Notes under the pieces: generated by a model
Databases searched by the model: none
Told to the model about the DNA's origin: nothing
Seen by the model: the letters and a program-made list of their open reading frames with translations, nothing else
In this document: positions 3,018-36,977 of the stretch, in pieces
How positions within the stretch are numbered: position 1 is the first letter of the stretch
Layout of the letters: every line of letters begins with the position of its first letter
IMG/VR virus record: IMGVR_UViG_3300034196_000151
Strand: one strand, 5' to 3'
DNA from: a virus
Taxonomy: Duplodnaviria > Heunggongvirae > Uroviricota > Caudoviricetes
Length of the DNA: 47,465 bases
Translations under genes and position numbers: made by a program

Positions 3018-3215
3018 TTATCGAGGATTTTTTATAATATTAATTGCATACTCCCAATCATAATCAATGCTCTGATCTTGATCTTGCAGCAAACCCCACT
3101 CTACAAGACTTTTTGAATCAGTCATGGCATCAGCCAAAGTATCTTCATCAGAAGATGAGCGACCAACATTATCCAACCAAGATTCAAGATATTCTTTTAA
3201 GACTTTTTTATTCAT
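3018..3215 (-). CDS. Hypothetical acidic protein (65 aa)
   Basis: ORF with SD and downstream hairpin. Confidence 0.55.
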   Translation of the reverse strand: MNKKVLKEYLESWLDNVGRSSSDEDTLADAMTDSKSLVEWGLLQDQDQSIDYDWEYAINIIKNPR

Positions 3216-3259
3216 AATTAATACCCTATGTATATTAATGTAGTGCAGAAATTACTAGG

Positions 3260-3502
3260 CTAGATCAAAACTCGGCAGTCGCCGCCCTGCAAGTGAATGG
3301 AATAAATCTCATCAGAGAGTGCTTCGATAGCCTCTTCATTACCTGCCACACCACAAGCAACGACTTTTTCGAACATTTCGTGATCTGCAGGAAAATCAGT
3401 TGCGTAGACAGATACCAGTCCAATGCGAACACCGCCATGTTCCAGCATGGCAATGAAATAGTCAGCACCTTTAAAAATGAAGTTGGTAATGTTTGCGGTC
3501 AT
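3260..3502 (-). CDS. Hypothetical protein (80 aa)
   Basis: ORF with TATAAT promoter upstream. Confidence 0.6.
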   Translation of the reverse strand: MTANITNFIFKGADYFIAMLEHGGVRIGLVSVYATDFPADHEMFEKVVACGVAGNEEAIEALSDEIYSIHLQGGDCRVLI

Positions 3503-3582
3503 GTCTATGCCCTGTGAGGTTTGTTGAAGTAATTATAACAAAAACAAGTTTTTTGGTCAATAAAAAGTGTAGGTTTAATAAA

Positions 3583-3811
3583 ATAAAAAAAGGCACCCTA
3601 ACGGATGCCTTTCTTGTAGAAGATGTTATTCTGCGTCTTGATGACGATTACGACGCTTGTCACGCCATTGACGGTCTTTTTTATTGTGCTGAGCTTTCTC
3701 GCTGTCACGTTTCTTGTTGCCCGAAAAACGTTCTTGTGCGTCACCGAAAGAACCTTGCATGTTGTATCTCCTAGCCTTTGGGGTTTGTGTTGTTTCGTTT
3801 TGATGTGTCTA
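3583..3811 (-). repeat. ~225-bp repeat unit 2
   Basis: Near-identical to 2684-2910. Confidence 0.9.
3626..3760 (-). CDS. Basic microprotein copy 2 (44 aa, MQGSFGDAQERFSGNKKRDSEKAQHNKKDRQWRDKRRNRHQDAE)
   Basis: SD AGGAG; own promoter and terminator; same length and frame as copy 1. Confidence 0.85.
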   Translation of the reverse strand: MQGSFGDAQERFSGNKKRDSEKAQHNKKDRQWRDKRRNRHQDAE

Positions 3812-3866
3812 TAATACCAAAAATCATATTTCTAGACAAGCATTATTTTCTTAAACTTTAAAAATA

Positions 3867-4145
3867 TTACTCAAGGTCAAAATAGAAAACAATACGAGTT
3901 TTGCCATCAGCACATTGAAACGTGTGCTTGTATTCTGGGGTTGTGCAAGCTTTCCCACAGTGTAATCGTTTATCTGTTTGAACTTTATCAATCAACCTGC
4001 ATTGGTTGTCTTTATCTTTGACAAATGAAACCTCTTCGGGCCTTGTCAAGACAGCCATTAAGATACCACCACCGAAAACAGCAAAAACTATCAGAGAGGA
4101 TGTGGTTGCTAAACTCAATTCACTTTCAATTTTGTTATTAAACAT
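3867..4145 (-). CDS. Membrane-anchored protein with four Cys (92 aa)
   Basis: N-terminal hydrophobic helix followed by a Cys-containing soluble part. Confidence 0.6.
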   Translation of the reverse strand: MFNNKIESELSLATTSSLIVFAVFGGGILMAVLTRPEEVSFVKDKDNQCRLIDKVQTDKRLHCGKACTTPEYKHTFQCADGKTRIVFYFDLE

Positions 4146-4169
4146 AAGTAAATTTCACAATAAGGATGG

Positions 4170-4390
4170 ATAAAAAAAGGCACCCTAACGGATGCCTTTC
4201 TTCTGGTAGAAGTTTATTCTGCGTCTTGATGACGGTTGCGACGCTTATCACGCCATTGACGGTCTTTTTTATTGTGCTGAGCTTTCTCGCTGTCGTGTTT
4301 CTTAGCACCACTGAAACGTTCAACTGTGTCACCGAAAGAACCTTGCATTTTGTAACTCCTAACCTTGGGTTTGTGTTGTTTCGTTTTGAT
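4170..4390 (-). repeat. ~220-bp repeat unit 3
   Basis: Near-identical to units 1 and 2. Confidence 0.9.
4214..4348 (-). CDS. Basic microprotein copy 3 (44 aa, MQGSFGDTVERFSGAKKHDSEKAQHNKKDRQWRDKRRNRHQDAE)
   Basis: SD AGGAG; promoter TTGTTT-17-TATACT; terminator. Confidence 0.85.
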   Translation of the reverse strand: MQGSFGDTVERFSGAKKHDSEKAQHNKKDRQWRDKRRNRHQDAE

Positions 4391-4438
4391 GGGATAAGTA
4401 TACCAACATCACCAAACAAAAACAACATTTTTCTCAAT

Positions 4439-4825
4439 TTATTTTGGAGAATAGACCTTGCCATAGTCTGCCATGTGTTCGGCTGCGTCCGGGTCATCGG
4501 AATAGGCAGGCAAAGCCACACCAGCACCCTGTTCGTCCAAGACGTTAGGGTTTACATCGAAAGCACCATAAATAGTCAACTCACCAGAACGTGATTCTGA
4601 ACGGTTTAGGAGCACTTTGATATTCATTTCATTGGCGAGATCCTGCACCACTTCTTTTGCTTTTGACTTAGCCAGATTTCCATAGACTTCAAACCACGGC
4701 AAACCGTCTTCAAGCTTCAAACGGGAACCAACAATGCCATTCAAGACACCAAGATTCCATTTAGACATCACACGATTAAACGCCTGTTCCAACTCAACAA
4801 TATTTTTAGTATTAATTTCAGTCAT
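4439..4825 (-). CDS. Hypothetical protein (128 aa)
   Basis: ORF with SD GAGG and promoter. Confidence 0.65.
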   Translation of the reverse strand: MTEINTKNIVELEQAFNRVMSKWNLGVLNGIVGSRLKLEDGLPWFEVYGNLAKSKAKEVVQDLANEMNIKVLLNRSESRSGELTIYGAFDVNPNVLDEQGAGVALPAYSDDPDAAEHMADYGKVYSPK

Positions 4826-35655: not shown

Positions 35656-36264
35656 TTAGATTTTTTGAGTAGTATCTACATATTTCAAATAAGCGTCCAC
35701 TTTCTTTTGAACTGTGGCAATCGACTGGGTGACATCTTTGTGGTGTTCATCCCGTTGCAAGCAATGTTTAGGGAAGGTCATGGTAACGTTCAAGCCAATA
35801 GCTTCACCAGCAATACCACCAGCCCAGTCAGCTCCTGTTTGACCACCAGAGATAAGGTTTGTCAGCGGCCAAAACTCATGAACCTTAGCGATAACCATGT
35901 AAACCCACTGGTTCAAGGAAACTTGAAATTCATTAACAAACTTCGCTTCGTCCAACCGATCAAACTTTTGAGGCTCCGACAATTGTCCCGGTGCCCAAGC
36001 ACCAGAGAGAGAATAGATTCCATTACCGGCGACGTTCAAGGTCACAACATTGTGTTTTTTGCAGGCGGCATACAACATACGAGCCGCAACAAGAGGGTCT
36101 GTGCTCAAATGGATGGCGACATAACGATTACCGGCTTCACGTTTAGTAAGGCGTTCACCTGCAGAGGTAAAGTCTTCTGCGAAAGCGACAGTAAGATCTG
36201 CTGTGTGAGCATTGTGTACAGTTCTTGGCTTATACTGTGCTGACTCATGTTCGATAATTTTCAT
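35656..36264 (-). CDS. Circularly permuted putative molybdenum-carrier (SLOG) family protein
   Basis: RTVHNA..ADLTV, AGERLT and LNVAG motifs precede ISGGQTGAD, which is normally N-terminal. Confidence 0.7.
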   Translation of the reverse strand: MKIIEHESAQYKPRTVHNAHTADLTVAFAEDFTSAGERLTKREAGNRYVAIHLSTDPLVAARMLYAACKKHNVVTLNVAGNGIYSLSGAWAPGQLSEPQKFDRLDEAKFVNEFQVSLNQWVYMVIAKVHEFWPLTNLISGGQTGADWAGGIAGEAIGLNVTMTFPKHCLQRDEHHKDVTQSIATVQKKVDAYLKYVDTTQKI

Positions 36265-36331
36265 AAAGACACCCCTTTTTGAATAAAGATATTATACCAC
36301 AAAGGGTTTCAAATGGGAAATAAAAGGCATG

Positions 36332-36354
36332 AAAAAACCACCCGAAGGTGGTTT
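36332..36354 (-). terminator. Terminator of the tRNA-Leu/tmRNA-like operon
   Basis: AAACCACC-TTCG-GGTGGTTT followed by a T-run. Confidence 0.85.
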
Positions 36355-36361
36355 CTGTGTT

Positions 36362-36528
36362 TGGTAGCTGTTGATGGGGTCGAACCACCAAGTTAGGACT
36401 ATTTCATAAGCCTCAGAGTACGTGCGGCCTCGTCTGACTTACTATTTCATCTTCACTCTGCCTCCACATCCACGGTTTTTGATGTTTGCACGTATAACAC
36501 CGCCAACCGATCCAGTTTAGCAACAGCC
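36362..36528 (-). ncRNA. 167-nt tRNA-mimic RNA, candidate miniature tmRNA-like RNA
   Basis: Acceptor GGCUGUU/AACAGCU-A-CCA; T arm GGUGG-UUCGACC-CCAUC; 13-nt stemless D-loop with CUGGAU; P2-like GGUUGG/CUAACU; UAUACGU-GCA-AAC resume-like motif; 15-codon frame ending UAG UAA. Confidence 0.7.
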
Positions 36529-36542
36529 AGAAATCTTAAATT

Positions 36543-36627
36543 TGGTGCCCAAGGTCGGACTCGAACCGACACTCCTTTCGGAAGCGGATTTTGAATCCGC
36601 CGCGTCTACCAATTTCACCACATGGGC
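36543..36627 (-). tRNA. tRNA-Leu (CAA)
   Basis: GCCCATG/CTTGGGC acceptor; loop TT-CAA-AA; long variable arm; GGTTCGA; CCA. Confidence 0.95.
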
Positions 36628-36657: not shown

Positions 36658-36686
36658 AGTATATCAAGGTTTAGACAAAACTGCAA
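36658..36686 (-). promoter_or_regulatory. Sigma70 promoter of the tRNA-Leu(CAA)/tmRNA-like operon
   Basis: TTGCAG-17-TATACT. Confidence 0.75.
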
Positions 36687-36713: not shown

Positions 36714-36908
36714 TCATTCCATCAAATCTTTCGCAGCCGACTTATATCCACGATTCCATGCATATTGCAGCATAGCATCCAAAGATTTCAACTGTTCATC
36801 AGTCCAACCTTCGGTAGATGGCAAAGACATAGAACCACCTGCCAGACGTTTGTTTCCTGCAGCGTCTTTCATAATTTCTTTGATGTCATCATGAATATAA
36901 CCAGCCAT
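36714..36908 (-). CDS. Small hypothetical protein (64 aa)
   Basis: SD GAGGTG before MAGYI. Confidence 0.55.
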   Translation of the reverse strand: MAGYIHDDIKEIMKDAAGNKRLAGGSMSLPSTEGWTDEQLKSLDAMLQYAWNRGYKSAAKDLME

Positions 36909-36977
36909 ACGCACCTCAATATTAAAAGTATAGAGATTATCTCAACAGCCGTATTATATCAAAGAAATGGGGCTAAA

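What the first reader, a model, noticed from the sequence alone, without database searches (positions are those of the whole stretch)
36362..36528. Candidate miniature tmRNA-like RNA (167 nt) co-transcribed with tRNA-Leu(CAA)
Seen: a 7-bp acceptor stem (G1.U72 then six Watson-Crick pairs), A73-CCA, a canonical T arm, a 13-nt stemless D-loop (GCUAAACUGGAUC; compare AUUCUGGAUUCGA in E. coli tmRNA) and a P2-like helix GGUUGG/CUAACU. In place of an anticodon arm there are ~105 nt. These contain UAUACGU-GCA-AAC, one mismatch from the tmRNA resume consensus WAUARNYGCNAAN, which opens the frame ANIKNRGCGGRVKMK ending in UAG UAA (36489-36439). Also seen: UACGUGC/GCACGUA plus CAGAG/CUCUG (a pseudoknot) and an ACAUC/GAUGU hairpin. 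The RNA lies 14 nt downstream of tRNA-Leu, between a sigma70 promoter and a UUCG terminator. Known: E. coli tmRNA is 363 nt with pseudoknots before and after the tag. Inference: a half-size tmRNA derivative or a new class of tRNA-mRNA hybrid. Caveat: the predicted 7-bp helix would mask the resume codon and there is no room for PK1.
Basis: partly seen in the sequence, partly recalled or inferred. Interest (0 to 1): 0.92.

Follow-up and report, generated by a model that had tools for sequence, protein, structure and literature searches.

The report
tRNA-ended folded phage RNA, not tmRNA
This is a real, conserved and expressed 167-base RNA gene of giant phage-like genomes that has the amino-acid-accepting end of a tRNA but two folded arms that pair with each other in place of the decoding half. 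It is built like phage T4's still unexplained "species 1" RNA, and not like the ribosome-rescue RNA tmRNA.

Summary
The sequence features are there: a 7-bp acceptor stem, A73-CCA, a canonical T arm, 14 nt after tRNA-Leu(CAA), between a conserved promoter and a UUCG terminator.

I collected six distinct copies (84-95% identical). Five come from other metagenomic contigs, four of them between 0.68 and 1.85 Mb long.

**What the copies support**
- The tRNA-like ends are nearly invariant.
- Compensatory changes support a hairpin at 28-33/43-48.
- They also support a 6-bp pairing of that hairpin's loop with 104-109 (C37-G108 becomes U-A).

**What they refute in the tmRNA reading**
- No ARAGORN or Rfam hit.
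- The acceptor stem has C3-G70, not G3.U70.
- The proposed P2 helix and the ACAUC/GAUGU hairpin are broken in homologs.
- Substitutions show no codon pattern.
- One homolog has a 1-nt insertion that removes the stop, so the frame reads 25 codons instead of 15.
- The "resume codon" sits inside the pairing loop.

**Expression**
- A tRNA-seq-type library holds a 177-nt contig covering just this RNA, at tRNA-like depth.
- A groundwater metatranscriptome holds it as a closed 166-nt cycle (...ACC joined to G1). No assembled DNA copy encodes that junction.

The closest known thing is T4 species 1 RNA (rnaC), by design and not by sequence. The function is unknown.

This scan had already found the same RNA on other DNA (e1-5372268), with the same verdict.

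The parts
36658..36686 (-). Sigma70-type promoter of the tRNA-Leu/element operon: -35 TTGCAG (36686-36681), a 17-nt spacer, and an extended -10 TGaTATACT (36666-36658).
   Evidence: Coordinates. The promoter and the first transcribed bases are conserved in three genomes. The consensus scan did not flag it because only 3 of 6 bases match in the -35. Promoter function is inferred.
36543..36627 (-). tRNA-Leu(CAA), with encoded CCA.
   Evidence: ARAGORN. Rfam tRNA, 52.7 bits.
36529..36542 (-). 14-nt A/U-rich spacer AAUUUAAGAUUUCU between the tRNA and the element.
   Evidence: Length and nearly the whole sequence are conserved in all six loci. In Ga0247725 the same spacer follows tRNA-Leu(UAG) instead.
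36362..36528 (-). The 167-nt tRNA-ended RNA (index 1 = 36528, index 167 = 36362).
   Evidence: RNA-library contigs end at or near these coordinates.
36522..36528 (-). Acceptor stem, 5' strand GGCUGUU (index 1-7). It pairs with index 157-163.
   Evidence: All 7 pairs are invariant in the 6 copies.
36510..36521 (-). D-loop-like single strand GCUAAACUGGAU (index 8-19), with the GG expected to dock on the T loop.
   Evidence: Index 11-22 is invariant in all six; positions 9-10 change in L069. The candidate D stem CUAA/UUGG is broken in homologs. The elbow contact is inferred from general tRNA structure.
36473..36509 (-). Arm 1 (index 20-56). It has a basal stem CGG/CCG, a hairpin 28-33/43-48, and a 9-nt apical loop AUACGUGCA (36495-36487).
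   Evidence: Pair 33-43 switches U-A to C-G; 29-47 switches G.U to G-C; 28-48 switches G-C to G.U. Basal pairs 23-53 and 24-52 are only partly kept.
36390..36463 (-). Arm 2 region (index 66-139). It contains GCACGU (index 104-109, 36425-36420), which pairs with the arm-1 loop. There are two mutually exclusive pairings of GAG(71-73): CAGAG/CUCUG (69-73/111-115), or GAGU/ACUU (71-74/136-139) together with 87-93/117-123.
   Evidence: Loop pairing 36-41/104-109: C37-G108 becomes U37-A108 in L069, with no breaks. Pair 70-114 is A-U, G.U or G-C, with one break at 71-113. Pair 74-136 switches U-A to C-G and 71-139 switches G.U to A-U, with no breaks. Stem 87-93/117-123 has 2 covarying pairs and 4 breaks. 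The inner fold is unresolved.
36373..36389 (-). T arm GGUGG-UUCGACC-CCAUC (index 140-156).
   Evidence: It has the canonical T-loop letters and the closing G-C pair. Pair 140-156 switches G-C to G.U in L069, and loop position 150 is C or U.
36362..36372 (-). Acceptor 3' strand AACAGCU (36372-36366), discriminator A, and encoded CCA (36365-36362).
   Evidence: Invariant in the 6 copies.
36329..36354 (-). Intrinsic terminator: an 8-bp stem with a UUCG loop, followed by a U run.
   Evidence: One search found the stem. It is conserved after the element in all six loci. It is also kept in relatives that lack the element (L065).

Best explanation
This is a gene for a stable non-coding RNA.

**How it is made.** It is transcribed with tRNA-Leu from a host-type promoter and ends at an intrinsic terminator. 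It is released the way tRNAs are. RNase P would cut at G1 (36528), because the acceptor stem, T arm and elbow make a tRNA 'top half'. 3' trimming and CCA repair would give ...ACCA (36362).

**Shape.** In place of the D stem, anticodon arm and variable arm it has two arms.
- Arm 1 is index 20-56.
- Arm 2 lies within index 66-139.
- The apical parts of the two arms pair with each other over 6-7 bp (ACGUGC with GCACGU), locking the insert into a compact body.

**Function.** It is not a tmRNA and carries no message. I commit to it acting as a non-decoding tRNA mimic. The nearly invariant tRNA-like end gives it tRNA-type maturation, stability and access to proteins that read the acceptor/T-arm/CCA end. 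The kissing-arm body is the specific part.

**Shown:** the gene, its conservation, the hairpin and the loop pairing, its accumulation as a discrete RNA, and the failure of the tmRNA features.

**Inferred:** RNase P and CCA processing, the elbow contact, and the mimic or decoy role.

**Confidence.** The figure of 0.7 is for the gene, the fold class and 'not tmRNA'. The mimic or decoy role on its own is about 0.3.
For: **Sequence anatomy**

**Conservation**
- Six distinct copies, 84-95% identical, come from independent assemblies (JGI, ENA, Logan).
- The ends are nearly invariant and the interior is variable.

**Covariation**
- 33-43: U-A switches to C-G.
- 37-108: C-G becomes U-A, in the loop pairing.
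- 70-114: A-U, G.U or G-C.
- 74-136: U-A becomes C-G.

**Fold energy**
- The nested part of the model plus the kiss is energetically on a par with the MFE.

**Expression**
- Run X25 has Illumina adapters abutting tRNA CCA ends, so I infer it is a tRNA- or small-RNA-type library. It holds a 177-nt contig covering 36363-36528 only, at depth 96. tRNA contigs in the same run are at 66-80.
- Metatranscriptome X16 holds the RNA at depth about 50.
- Words of the element are held in runs from at least 16 studies.

**Same design in T4 rnaC**
- A 7-position acceptor-like stem abuts a canonical T arm. One pair covaries (A-U to G-C) across 5 T-even relatives.
- The two arms have loops UUGACG and CGUCAA, which stay invariant while the arm stems diverge.
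- It is the last gene before the terminator of the tRNA transcript (PMC2330249).
Against: - No function has been shown for this RNA or for T4 rnaC (PMC3014915), so the mimic or decoy role is inference only.
- The acceptor stem and T arm are almost invariant, so covariation cannot test them.
- Only six sequences are available. Each supported pair rests on one or two substitution events.
- Two pairings of GAG(71-73) exclude each other, and each has one compensatory change. Stem 87-93/117-123 has four breaks.
- The element is dispensable in relatives. In L061-L064 it is deleted or decayed, and in L065 and L073-L075 an ORF takes its place.
- Whole-molecule MFE z = +0.38.
- RNA evidence comes from assembled contigs, not raw reads. 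The X25 contig carries 9 extra 5' letters that match no assembled leader.
Confidence: 0.7

Rival explanations
1. Miniature tmRNA or tRNA-mRNA hybrid. The RNA would be charged, enter stalled ribosomes, and add the peptide that starts at GCA (index 40).
For: - It has a tRNA-like domain with a stemless D-loop and CCA.
- An open frame from GCA exists in every copy.
- A long-range pairing is present.
Against: - ARAGORN finds no tmRNA even at 50% thresholds.
- No Rfam tmRNA-clan hit at E<=10.
- The acceptor stem has C3-G70, not G3.U70.
- P2 is broken in 4 of 6 copies.
- G40 and C41 of the 'resume codon' pair with C105 and G104.
- The frame is 15 codons in five copies and 25 in L069.
- Among the four sequences, 8 of 15 residues vary, with no third-position excess.
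- The tail ...VKMK is not a hydrophobic degron (general knowledge of ssrA tags).
- The related 290-kb record has no SmpB gene.
Confidence: 0.03
2. A cis-acting 3' cap of the tRNA-Leu transcript. The tRNA-like fold would serve only as a processing and stability handle: it gives an RNase P entry site and protects tRNA-Leu's 3' side. The released RNA would have no role of its own.
For: - It always lies 14 nt behind a tRNA-Leu (CAA or UAG) and directly before the terminator.
- Where the element is missing from this site, tRNA-Leu(CAA) is missing there too.
Against: - The released RNA accumulates to tRNA-like depth.
- The interior keeps covarying long-range pairs and long invariant single strands that a mere handle would not need.
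- Other tRNAs of these genomes do without such a cap.
Confidence: 0.15
3. A degenerate or intron-bearing tRNA gene. It would be a tRNA interrupted by an insert, either spliced to a working tRNA or decaying.
For: With introns allowed and thresholds at 70%, ARAGORN can force a 'tRNA-His with a 72-nt intron' on exactly these 167 nt.
Against: - That reading is below ARAGORN's normal threshold.
- It needs the D stem CUAA/UUGG, which is broken in homologs.
- It leaves a 23-nt unpaired variable region.
- Its 'intron' borders cut through the covarying hairpin and loop pairing.
- The RNA-library contigs hold the full 166 nt and no spliced form.
- No Rfam intron or tRNA hit.
Confidence: 0.03
4. A bar-type minigene RNA. 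The two AUG-AAA-UAG units (index 79-87 and 122-130) would be translated and trap peptidyl-tRNA. This lead comes from scan note e1-5372824.
For: - Both units are present in the window.
- In Ga0247725 and Ga0308157 the changes keep a start and a stop (AUG to GUG, UAG to UAA).
- GGAG lies 5 nt upstream of the first AUG in those copies.
Against: - In L069 the first unit loses its stop through a 1-nt insertion, and the second becomes ACU-CAA-UAG.
- In L059 the second unit is AUG-CAA-UAG.
- The start and stop changes in the other copies are the two sides of covarying pairs 87-123 and 88-122.
- The purine-rich box pairs with 111-115.
Confidence: 0.02

Closest known systems
Bacteriophage T4 species 1 RNA (rnaC, 'RNA C'; NC_000866 70908-71046, 139 nt) and its T-even relatives
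   Same: - It is the last gene of a phage tRNA transcript, just before the terminator (PMC2330249).
- Its 5' and 3' ends form a 7-position acceptor-like stem directly abutting a canonical T arm.
- About 105 nt replace the D, anticodon and variable region, as two arms whose apical sequences are complementary. These are UUGACG/CGUCAA in T4 and ACGUGC/GCACGU here.
- Its function is unknown (PMC3014915).
   Different: - There is no detectable sequence similarity. blastn of the element against 50,697 phage records, which hold 748 rnaC copies, finds nothing at E<=1.
- T4's stem has two conserved U.U mismatches and no encoded CCA. This RNA has a perfect stem (G.U plus 6 Watson-Crick pairs), A73 and an encoded CCA.
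- This RNA has a 12-nt D-loop-like strand with GG.
- It is 167 nt rather than 139 nt.
- The second kissing partner sits in a larger, unresolved arm.
tmRNA (SsrA; Rfam RF00023 and the two-piece and mitochondrial variants)
   Same: - A tRNA-like domain made of acceptor stem, T arm and a D-loop without a stem, with a 3' CCA.
- A large insert in place of the anticodon arm, with at least one pseudoknot-type pairing.
   Different: - No G3.U70.
- No P2 helix.
- No conserved tag frame or degron.
- The supposed resume codon is base-paired.
- No model hit.
- Less than half the size of E. coli tmRNA.
Other tRNA-like non-coding modules matured by tRNA enzymes (bacterial YrlA/Y RNA tRNA-like domain, PMC4201824; viral 3' tRNA-like structures; mascRNA). 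Named from general knowledge apart from the cited paper.
   Same: They use a tRNA top half or elbow, without decoding, to recruit tRNA-processing or tRNA-binding proteins.
   Different: - In YrlA the tRNA-like module is internal, and the ends form the Ro-binding stem.
- Plant-virus tRNA-like structures are the 3' ends of genomes.
- None has the two kissing arms or sits in a phage tRNA operon.

Membership tests
tmRNA | Recognised by tmRNA detectors (ARAGORN tmRNA search; the Rfam tmRNA clan models). | tested here: not met
   ARAGORN finds 0 tmRNA at default, 80% and 50% thresholds. Rfam gives no hit on the element at the gathering score or at E<=10. As a control, a different 106-nt tRNA-like RNA in the related record did draw a weak RF00023 hit (14.6 bits).
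tmRNA | G3.U70 alanine identity pair in the acceptor stem. | tested here: not met
   Pair 3-161 is C-G in all six copies.
tmRNA | A tRNA-like domain: a 7-bp acceptor stem, a T arm, a D-loop without a stem, and NCCA. | tested here: met
tmRNA | Helix P2 joining the strand after the D-loop to the strand before the T arm. | tested here: not met
   21-26/133-138 is broken in 4 of 6 copies. The ACUU before the T arm may instead pair with GAGU at 71-74.
tmRNA | A conserved tag reading frame with a single-stranded resume codon and a C-terminal degron. | tested here: not met
   The frame is 15 codons in five copies and 25 in L069. Substitutions fall 5:3:3 by codon position. G40 and C41 pair in the loop pairing. 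The tail is VKMK.
tmRNA | Works with SmpB. | not testable with these tools
   No SmpB gene in the related 290-kb record. A host SmpB cannot be excluded.
T4 species 1 (rnaC)-type tRNA-ended phage RNAs | Encoded at the distal end of a phage tRNA transcription unit, before its terminator. | tested here: met
   Window. T4: and PMC2330249.
T4 species 1 (rnaC)-type tRNA-ended phage RNAs | The termini form an acceptor-like stem that abuts a canonical T arm. | tested here: met
   Here. T4 family: stem CGAUUCG/CGUUUCG, with an A-U to G-C switch in 4 relatives.
T4 species 1 (rnaC)-type tRNA-ended phage RNAs | Two internal arms whose apical loops are mutually complementary (a kissing pair). | tested here: met
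   Here: 36-41/104-109, 6 bp, one compensatory double change and no breaks. Whether 104-109 lies in a simple hairpin loop is unresolved. T4 family: UUGACG and CGUCAA stay invariant while the arm stems diverge.
T4 species 1 (rnaC)-type tRNA-ended phage RNAs | Sequence homology to rnaC. | tested here: not met
   No blastn match of the element to any phage record at E<=1. The resemblance is one of design, so I do not file this as an rnaC homolog.
canonical or intron-bearing tRNA | D arm and anticodon arm with a 7-nt loop (cloverleaf). | tested here: not met
   No call from ARAGORN or Rfam tRNA. The forced intron model needs a D stem that homologs break.

The most novel reading that the evidence does not exclude
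The RNA may be covalently circularised in vivo, making it a tRNA-shaped circular RNA of a phage.

**For**
- In a groundwater metatranscriptome it assembles as a closed 166-nt cycle. The 3' ...CUACC (36363, terminal A missing) is joined directly to the 5' G (36528).
- That junction is not encoded in any of the six assembled DNA copies. Each is single-copy, with the spacer before it and the terminator after it.
- The related 290-kb record encodes a T4 Rnl1-type RNA ligase, the enzyme class that seals 3'-OH to 5'-phosphate ends in tRNA.

**Consequence.** A circle would resist exonucleases and could not be aminoacylated.

**Not excluded**
- Intermolecular head-to-tail joining.
- Ligation or template switching during library preparation.
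- Only one run shows it, and I could lay reads only once.
Probability: 0.2. Interest if true: 0.8.

Novelty: new variant of a known kind. Interest (0 to 1): 0.5.

Why it matters
Phage T4's species 1 RNA has had no known function for about fifty years. This scan keeps finding RNAs of the same design in unrelated phages: a tRNA top half plus two arms that kiss.

This family carries the design into giant phage-like genomes, in its most tRNA-like form so far: a perfect acceptor stem, A73 and an encoded CCA. It also has direct evidence of abundant accumulation in RNA libraries and a possible circular form.

A design that recurs without sequence homology argues for a common, selectable job at the tRNA-handling machinery of the host. 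That job could be processing, CCA repair, charging, or anti-phage enzymes that attack tRNA ends.

The result also removes a false lead. Small size plus tRNA-like ends plus an open frame does not make a mini-tmRNA.

Tried and rejected
**Searches that found nothing**
- blastn of the element against phages (E<=1) and plasmids (E<=0.01): no match. The earlier 401-nt query hit only tRNA-Leu.
- IMG/VR scan for D-loop plus T-loop with a gap: 11 of 12 hits were chance (a coding end plus a tRNA).
- IMG/VR scan for the internal 17-mer: 16 of 17 hits were chance.
- GTDB genome scan with a 23-mer: 0 hits.
- The metagenome records behind L020 and L021 could not be searched as whole records. No whole genome is held for the window.
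- The tRNA-Leu neighbourhood of a PA5oct-like Pseudomonas jumbo phage (MIJ3), whose tRNAs resemble the window's, has no such element.
- Literature searches found no description of this RNA, of phage mini-tmRNAs of this kind, or of a function for T4 RNA C.

**Structure predictions I did not rely on**
- RNAalifold's nested consensus pairs 57-80 into the T arm. I did not adopt this, because it destroys a canonical T arm. Its one compensatory pair (74-136) is kept in my alternative arm-2 model.

**Ideas from memory, dropped**
- CsrA-type GGA sites: G59U in two variants removes the best one.
- A hammerhead-like CUGANGA...GAAA motif: it does not fit, and there is no Rfam hit.

**Read-laying details used only as context**
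- Runs that hold small shares of the element's words, and parts without cover.
- The 188-nt X18 contig runs past the terminator at depth about 5, so it may be DNA.

**Not done**
- I built no covariance model. Six near-identical sequences would not reach T4 rnaC.
- I chose not to type a 168-character structure string into a call.

Full report
**1. What is in the window**

On the minus strand, tRNA-Leu(CAA) lies at 36627-36543 (ARAGORN; Rfam tRNA 52.7 bits). A 14-nt A/U-rich spacer follows, and then the 167-nt element at 36528-36362. Index 1 is 36528.
- Index 1-7 (GGCUGUU) pairs with 157-163 (AACAGCU): one G.U pair and six Watson-Crick pairs.
- Index 140-156 is a canonical T arm, GGUGG-UUCGACC-CCAUC. 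It abuts the acceptor strand.
- A164 and CCA end the element.
- Index 8-19 is a D-loop-like strand with GG.
- Upstream is TTGCAG-17 nt-TGaTATACT (36686-36658). The consensus scan did not flag it, but it is conserved with its first transcribed bases in three genomes.
- Downstream is an 8-bp UUCG-loop terminator (36354-36329).

**2. No known family matches**
- ARAGORN calls no tmRNA or tRNA on the element, even at 50% tmRNA thresholds.
- Rfam 15 gives nothing at gathering scores, or at E<=10 in a 551-nt search.
- The whole-molecule MFE is ordinary (z = +0.38).
- With introns allowed and thresholds lowered, ARAGORN can force a 'tRNA-His with a 72-nt intron'. This needs a D stem that homologs break, and it cuts through covarying pairs.

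**3. Homologs**

Cultured-phage and plasmid collections hold nothing similar.

An exact 3' 28-mer found one IMG/VR record: a 290-kb 'provirus', 32% G+C, with 35 tRNAs. It is a piece of a 1.54-Mb JGI contig. A 23-mer found a second copy in a 678-kb contig.

A small 59-66-residue protein gene lies just upstream in all loci. I used it as a handle (25 clusters) and fetched its contigs. That gave three more distinct copies:
- L059.
- L081, from a 1.85-Mb contig.
- L069 to L072, which are identical to each other, from a 1.28-Mb contig and three Logan runs.

In all there are six distinct sequences, 84-95% identical to the window.

The element always follows a tRNA-Leu by the same 14-nt spacer and precedes the same terminator. 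The tRNA is CAA in five copies and UAG in Ga0247725.

Relatives can lack it:
- L061-L064 keep only a roughly 70-nt 3' remnant. It is cut in the T loop next to a TnpB gene, and tRNA-Leu is gone.
- L065 and L073-L075 have an 80-residue ORF at the site.

**4. Structure from comparison**

Index 11-22 and 137-149 are identical in all six copies. The rest of the two ends (1-22 and 126-167) differs at only five positions (9, 10, 136, 150, 156). About 30 interior columns vary.

Supported helices:
- **Hairpin 28-33/43-48.** Pair 33-43 switches U-A to C-G, 29-47 switches G.U to G-C, and 28-48 switches G-C to G.U. There is one A.C break.
- **Loop pairing 36-41 with 104-109.** C37-G108 becomes U37-A108 in L069, with no breaks. 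This pairing crosses the hairpin, so it is a kissing or pseudoknot contact.
- **CAGAG/CUCUG (69-73/111-115).** Pair 70-114 is A-U, G.U or G-C. There is one break in L081.
- **GAGU/ACUU (71-74/136-139).** Pair 74-136 switches U-A to C-G, and 71-139 switches G.U to A-U. There are no breaks.

The last two exclude each other, so the inside of arm 2 is unresolved. There may be two conformers, or there may simply be too few data. Stem 87-93/117-123 has two covarying pairs and four breaks.

In an unbiased list of 120 candidate stems, eight carried a double-sided change. Six of them are the helices above and the arm-1 basal stem (20-23/53-56). The other two, 6-10/67-71 and 7-10/28-31, overlap the acceptor stem and arm 1, and I did not adopt them.

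The nested part of this model plus the kiss is energetically comparable to the MFE.

The ACAUC/GAUGU hairpin is broken in 3 copies and competes with the supported hairpin.

**5. The tmRNA test**

Membership fails on every specific feature:
- No detector hit.
- C3-G70 instead of G3.U70.
- No P2.
- The 'resume' GCA (index 40-42) lies in the kissing loop, with G40 and C41 paired.
- Among the four sequences compared, substitutions in the frame fall 5:3:3 on codon positions 1:2:3, and 8 of 15 residues vary.
- L069 has a 1-nt insertion after AUG(79-81). This removes the UAG/UAA stop and gives a 25-codon frame.
- The related 290-kb record has no SmpB.

The 'two AUG-AAA-UAG minigenes' lead from another scan note fails too. 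L069 and L059 lose them. The start and stop changes in other copies are the two sides of pairs 87-123 and 88-122.

**6. Expression (Logan contigs only)**

*Run X25.* It has Illumina adapter sequence directly abutting tRNA CCA and 5' ends. I therefore infer a small-RNA or tRNA-type library.
- It holds a 177-nt contig at depth 96 that covers 36363-36528 only.
- The contig carries 9 foreign letters at the 5' side and 2 at the 3' side.
- The 9 letters match no assembled leader exactly.
- tRNA contigs in that run have depth 66-80.

*Run X16.* This is a groundwater metatranscriptome.
- It holds a 196-nt contig at depth about 50 that is a closed 166-nt cycle (166 + 30).
- The 3' ...CUACC at 36363 is joined to G36528, with no ambiguous letters. 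The terminal A is missing.
- No assembled DNA copy encodes that junction. The join was therefore made at the RNA or cDNA level.
- The possibilities are a circular RNA, head-to-tail ligation, or a library artefact.

The related record encodes a T4 Rnl1-type RNA ligase (E = 4e-27). It has no RtcB and no Rnl2.

*Other runs.*
- A wastewater contig spans 36276-36572 at 98% identity.
- Another wastewater contig reproduces the decayed 3' remnant arrangement.
- Words of the element occur in runs from at least 16 studies, covering peat, food, leaf, indoor, freshwater, wastewater and groundwater samples. I have laid only four runs.

**7. Closest known**

T4 rnaC (species 1 RNA) was read from NC_000866 and compared with four T-even relatives.
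- Its termini form a 7-position stem, CGAUUCG/CGUUUCG, with two conserved U.U pairs and an A-U to G-C switch.
- The stem abuts a canonical T arm.
- Its two arms carry UUGACG and CGUCAA, which stay invariant while the arm stems diverge.
- It is the last gene before the terminator of the tRNA transcript (PMC2330249).
- Its role is unknown (PMC3014915).

The design is the same. The sequence is unrelated. The present RNA is also more tRNA-like, with a perfect stem, A73, an encoded CCA and a D-loop strand.

This scan reached the same verdict for this RNA on other DNA (e1-5372268), and for similar RNAs elsewhere. I re-tested those claims here rather than relying on them.

**8. Mechanism and verdict**

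*Shown:* a conserved, expressed, structured RNA gene that is not a tmRNA.

*Inferred:*
- Release by RNase P and 3' trimming or CCA repair.
- An elbow contact between the D-loop GG and the T loop.
- A role as a non-decoding tRNA mimic, whose nearly invariant acceptor/T-arm/CCA end engages tRNA-reading proteins while the kissing-arm body provides specificity.

A role as a mere cis-acting processing cap for tRNA-Leu is the main rival, at about 0.15.

The most novel reading still open is in vivo circularisation, at about 0.2.

Noticed in passing
G001 (IMGVR_UViG_3300024308_000302) 130182-129987(-), 114651-114546(-), 129837-129761(-): Three further tRNA-like genes that ARAGORN does not call. All have a 7-bp acceptor stem, a T arm and ACCA. 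The first is a 196-nt RNA with no Rfam hit. The second is a 106-nt RNA with a D arm and a long extra hairpin, and draws a weak RF00023 hit of 14.6 bits. The third is a 77-nt odd tRNA (Rfam tRNA 29.5 bits) followed by the same kind of UUCG terminator.
   Followed up: partly
L066:3253-3374 and L067:3253-3374 (Logan contigs): In a more distant relative (small protein 69% identical), the same syntenic site holds a different 122-nt tRNA-like RNA. It has acceptor GCCCGAU/AUCGGGC, T arm CUUGG-UUCGAAU-CCAAG, ACCA and two internal arms. It has its own promoter and no ARAGORN or Rfam hit. MFE z = -2.1.
   Followed up: partly
G001 179840-179914(-) and 180849-180923(-): Two tRNAs with anticodon CUA, which ARAGORN labels 'Pyl'. 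They are candidate amber suppressors in a 32% G+C, 35-tRNA record, so TAG recoding is possible.
   Followed up: no
L061-L064, about 3213-3290, with TnpB at 3357-4505(-): A decayed copy of the element. Only about 70 nt of the 3' part remain. It is cut inside the T loop (…GGUUCGACC|…) next to an IS605-type TnpB gene. tRNA-Leu and the 5' half are deleted. The same arrangement appears as a 'joint' in wastewater run X24.
   Followed up: partly
G001 66576-67160(-) (L038): A T4 Rnl1-type RNA ligase gene (PF09511, E = 4e-27, 380-residue frame), about 27 kb from the element. The record has no RtcB, Rnl2 or SmpB.
   Followed up: partly
window 36714-36914(-): A 59-66-residue protein with no family match. 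It is conserved in 25 clusters and sits next to tRNA genes or tRNA-like RNAs in most loci fetched (window, L001, L021, L059, L066, L069, L076-L082).
   Followed up: partly
window 35656-36264(-): The gene downstream of the terminator encodes a 202-residue cpYpsA (SLOG-fold) protein (Pfam E = 1e-8; phrog_10774). It has its own strong promoter. In Ga0247725 it lies upstream of the tRNA unit instead.
   Followed up: no
L001:4000-4065 and L021:3830-3888: Between the promoter and tRNA-Leu(CAA), two relatives carry a roughly 40-nt G+C-rich hairpin-forming leader that the window lacks.
   Followed up: no
contigs behind L020, L069 and L081: The region sits in contigs of 1.54, 1.28 and 1.85 Mb, while IMG/VR calls only 290 kb of one of them a provirus. 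Whether the replicon is a giant phage, a prophage in a small genome or a mis-assembly is open.
   Followed up: no
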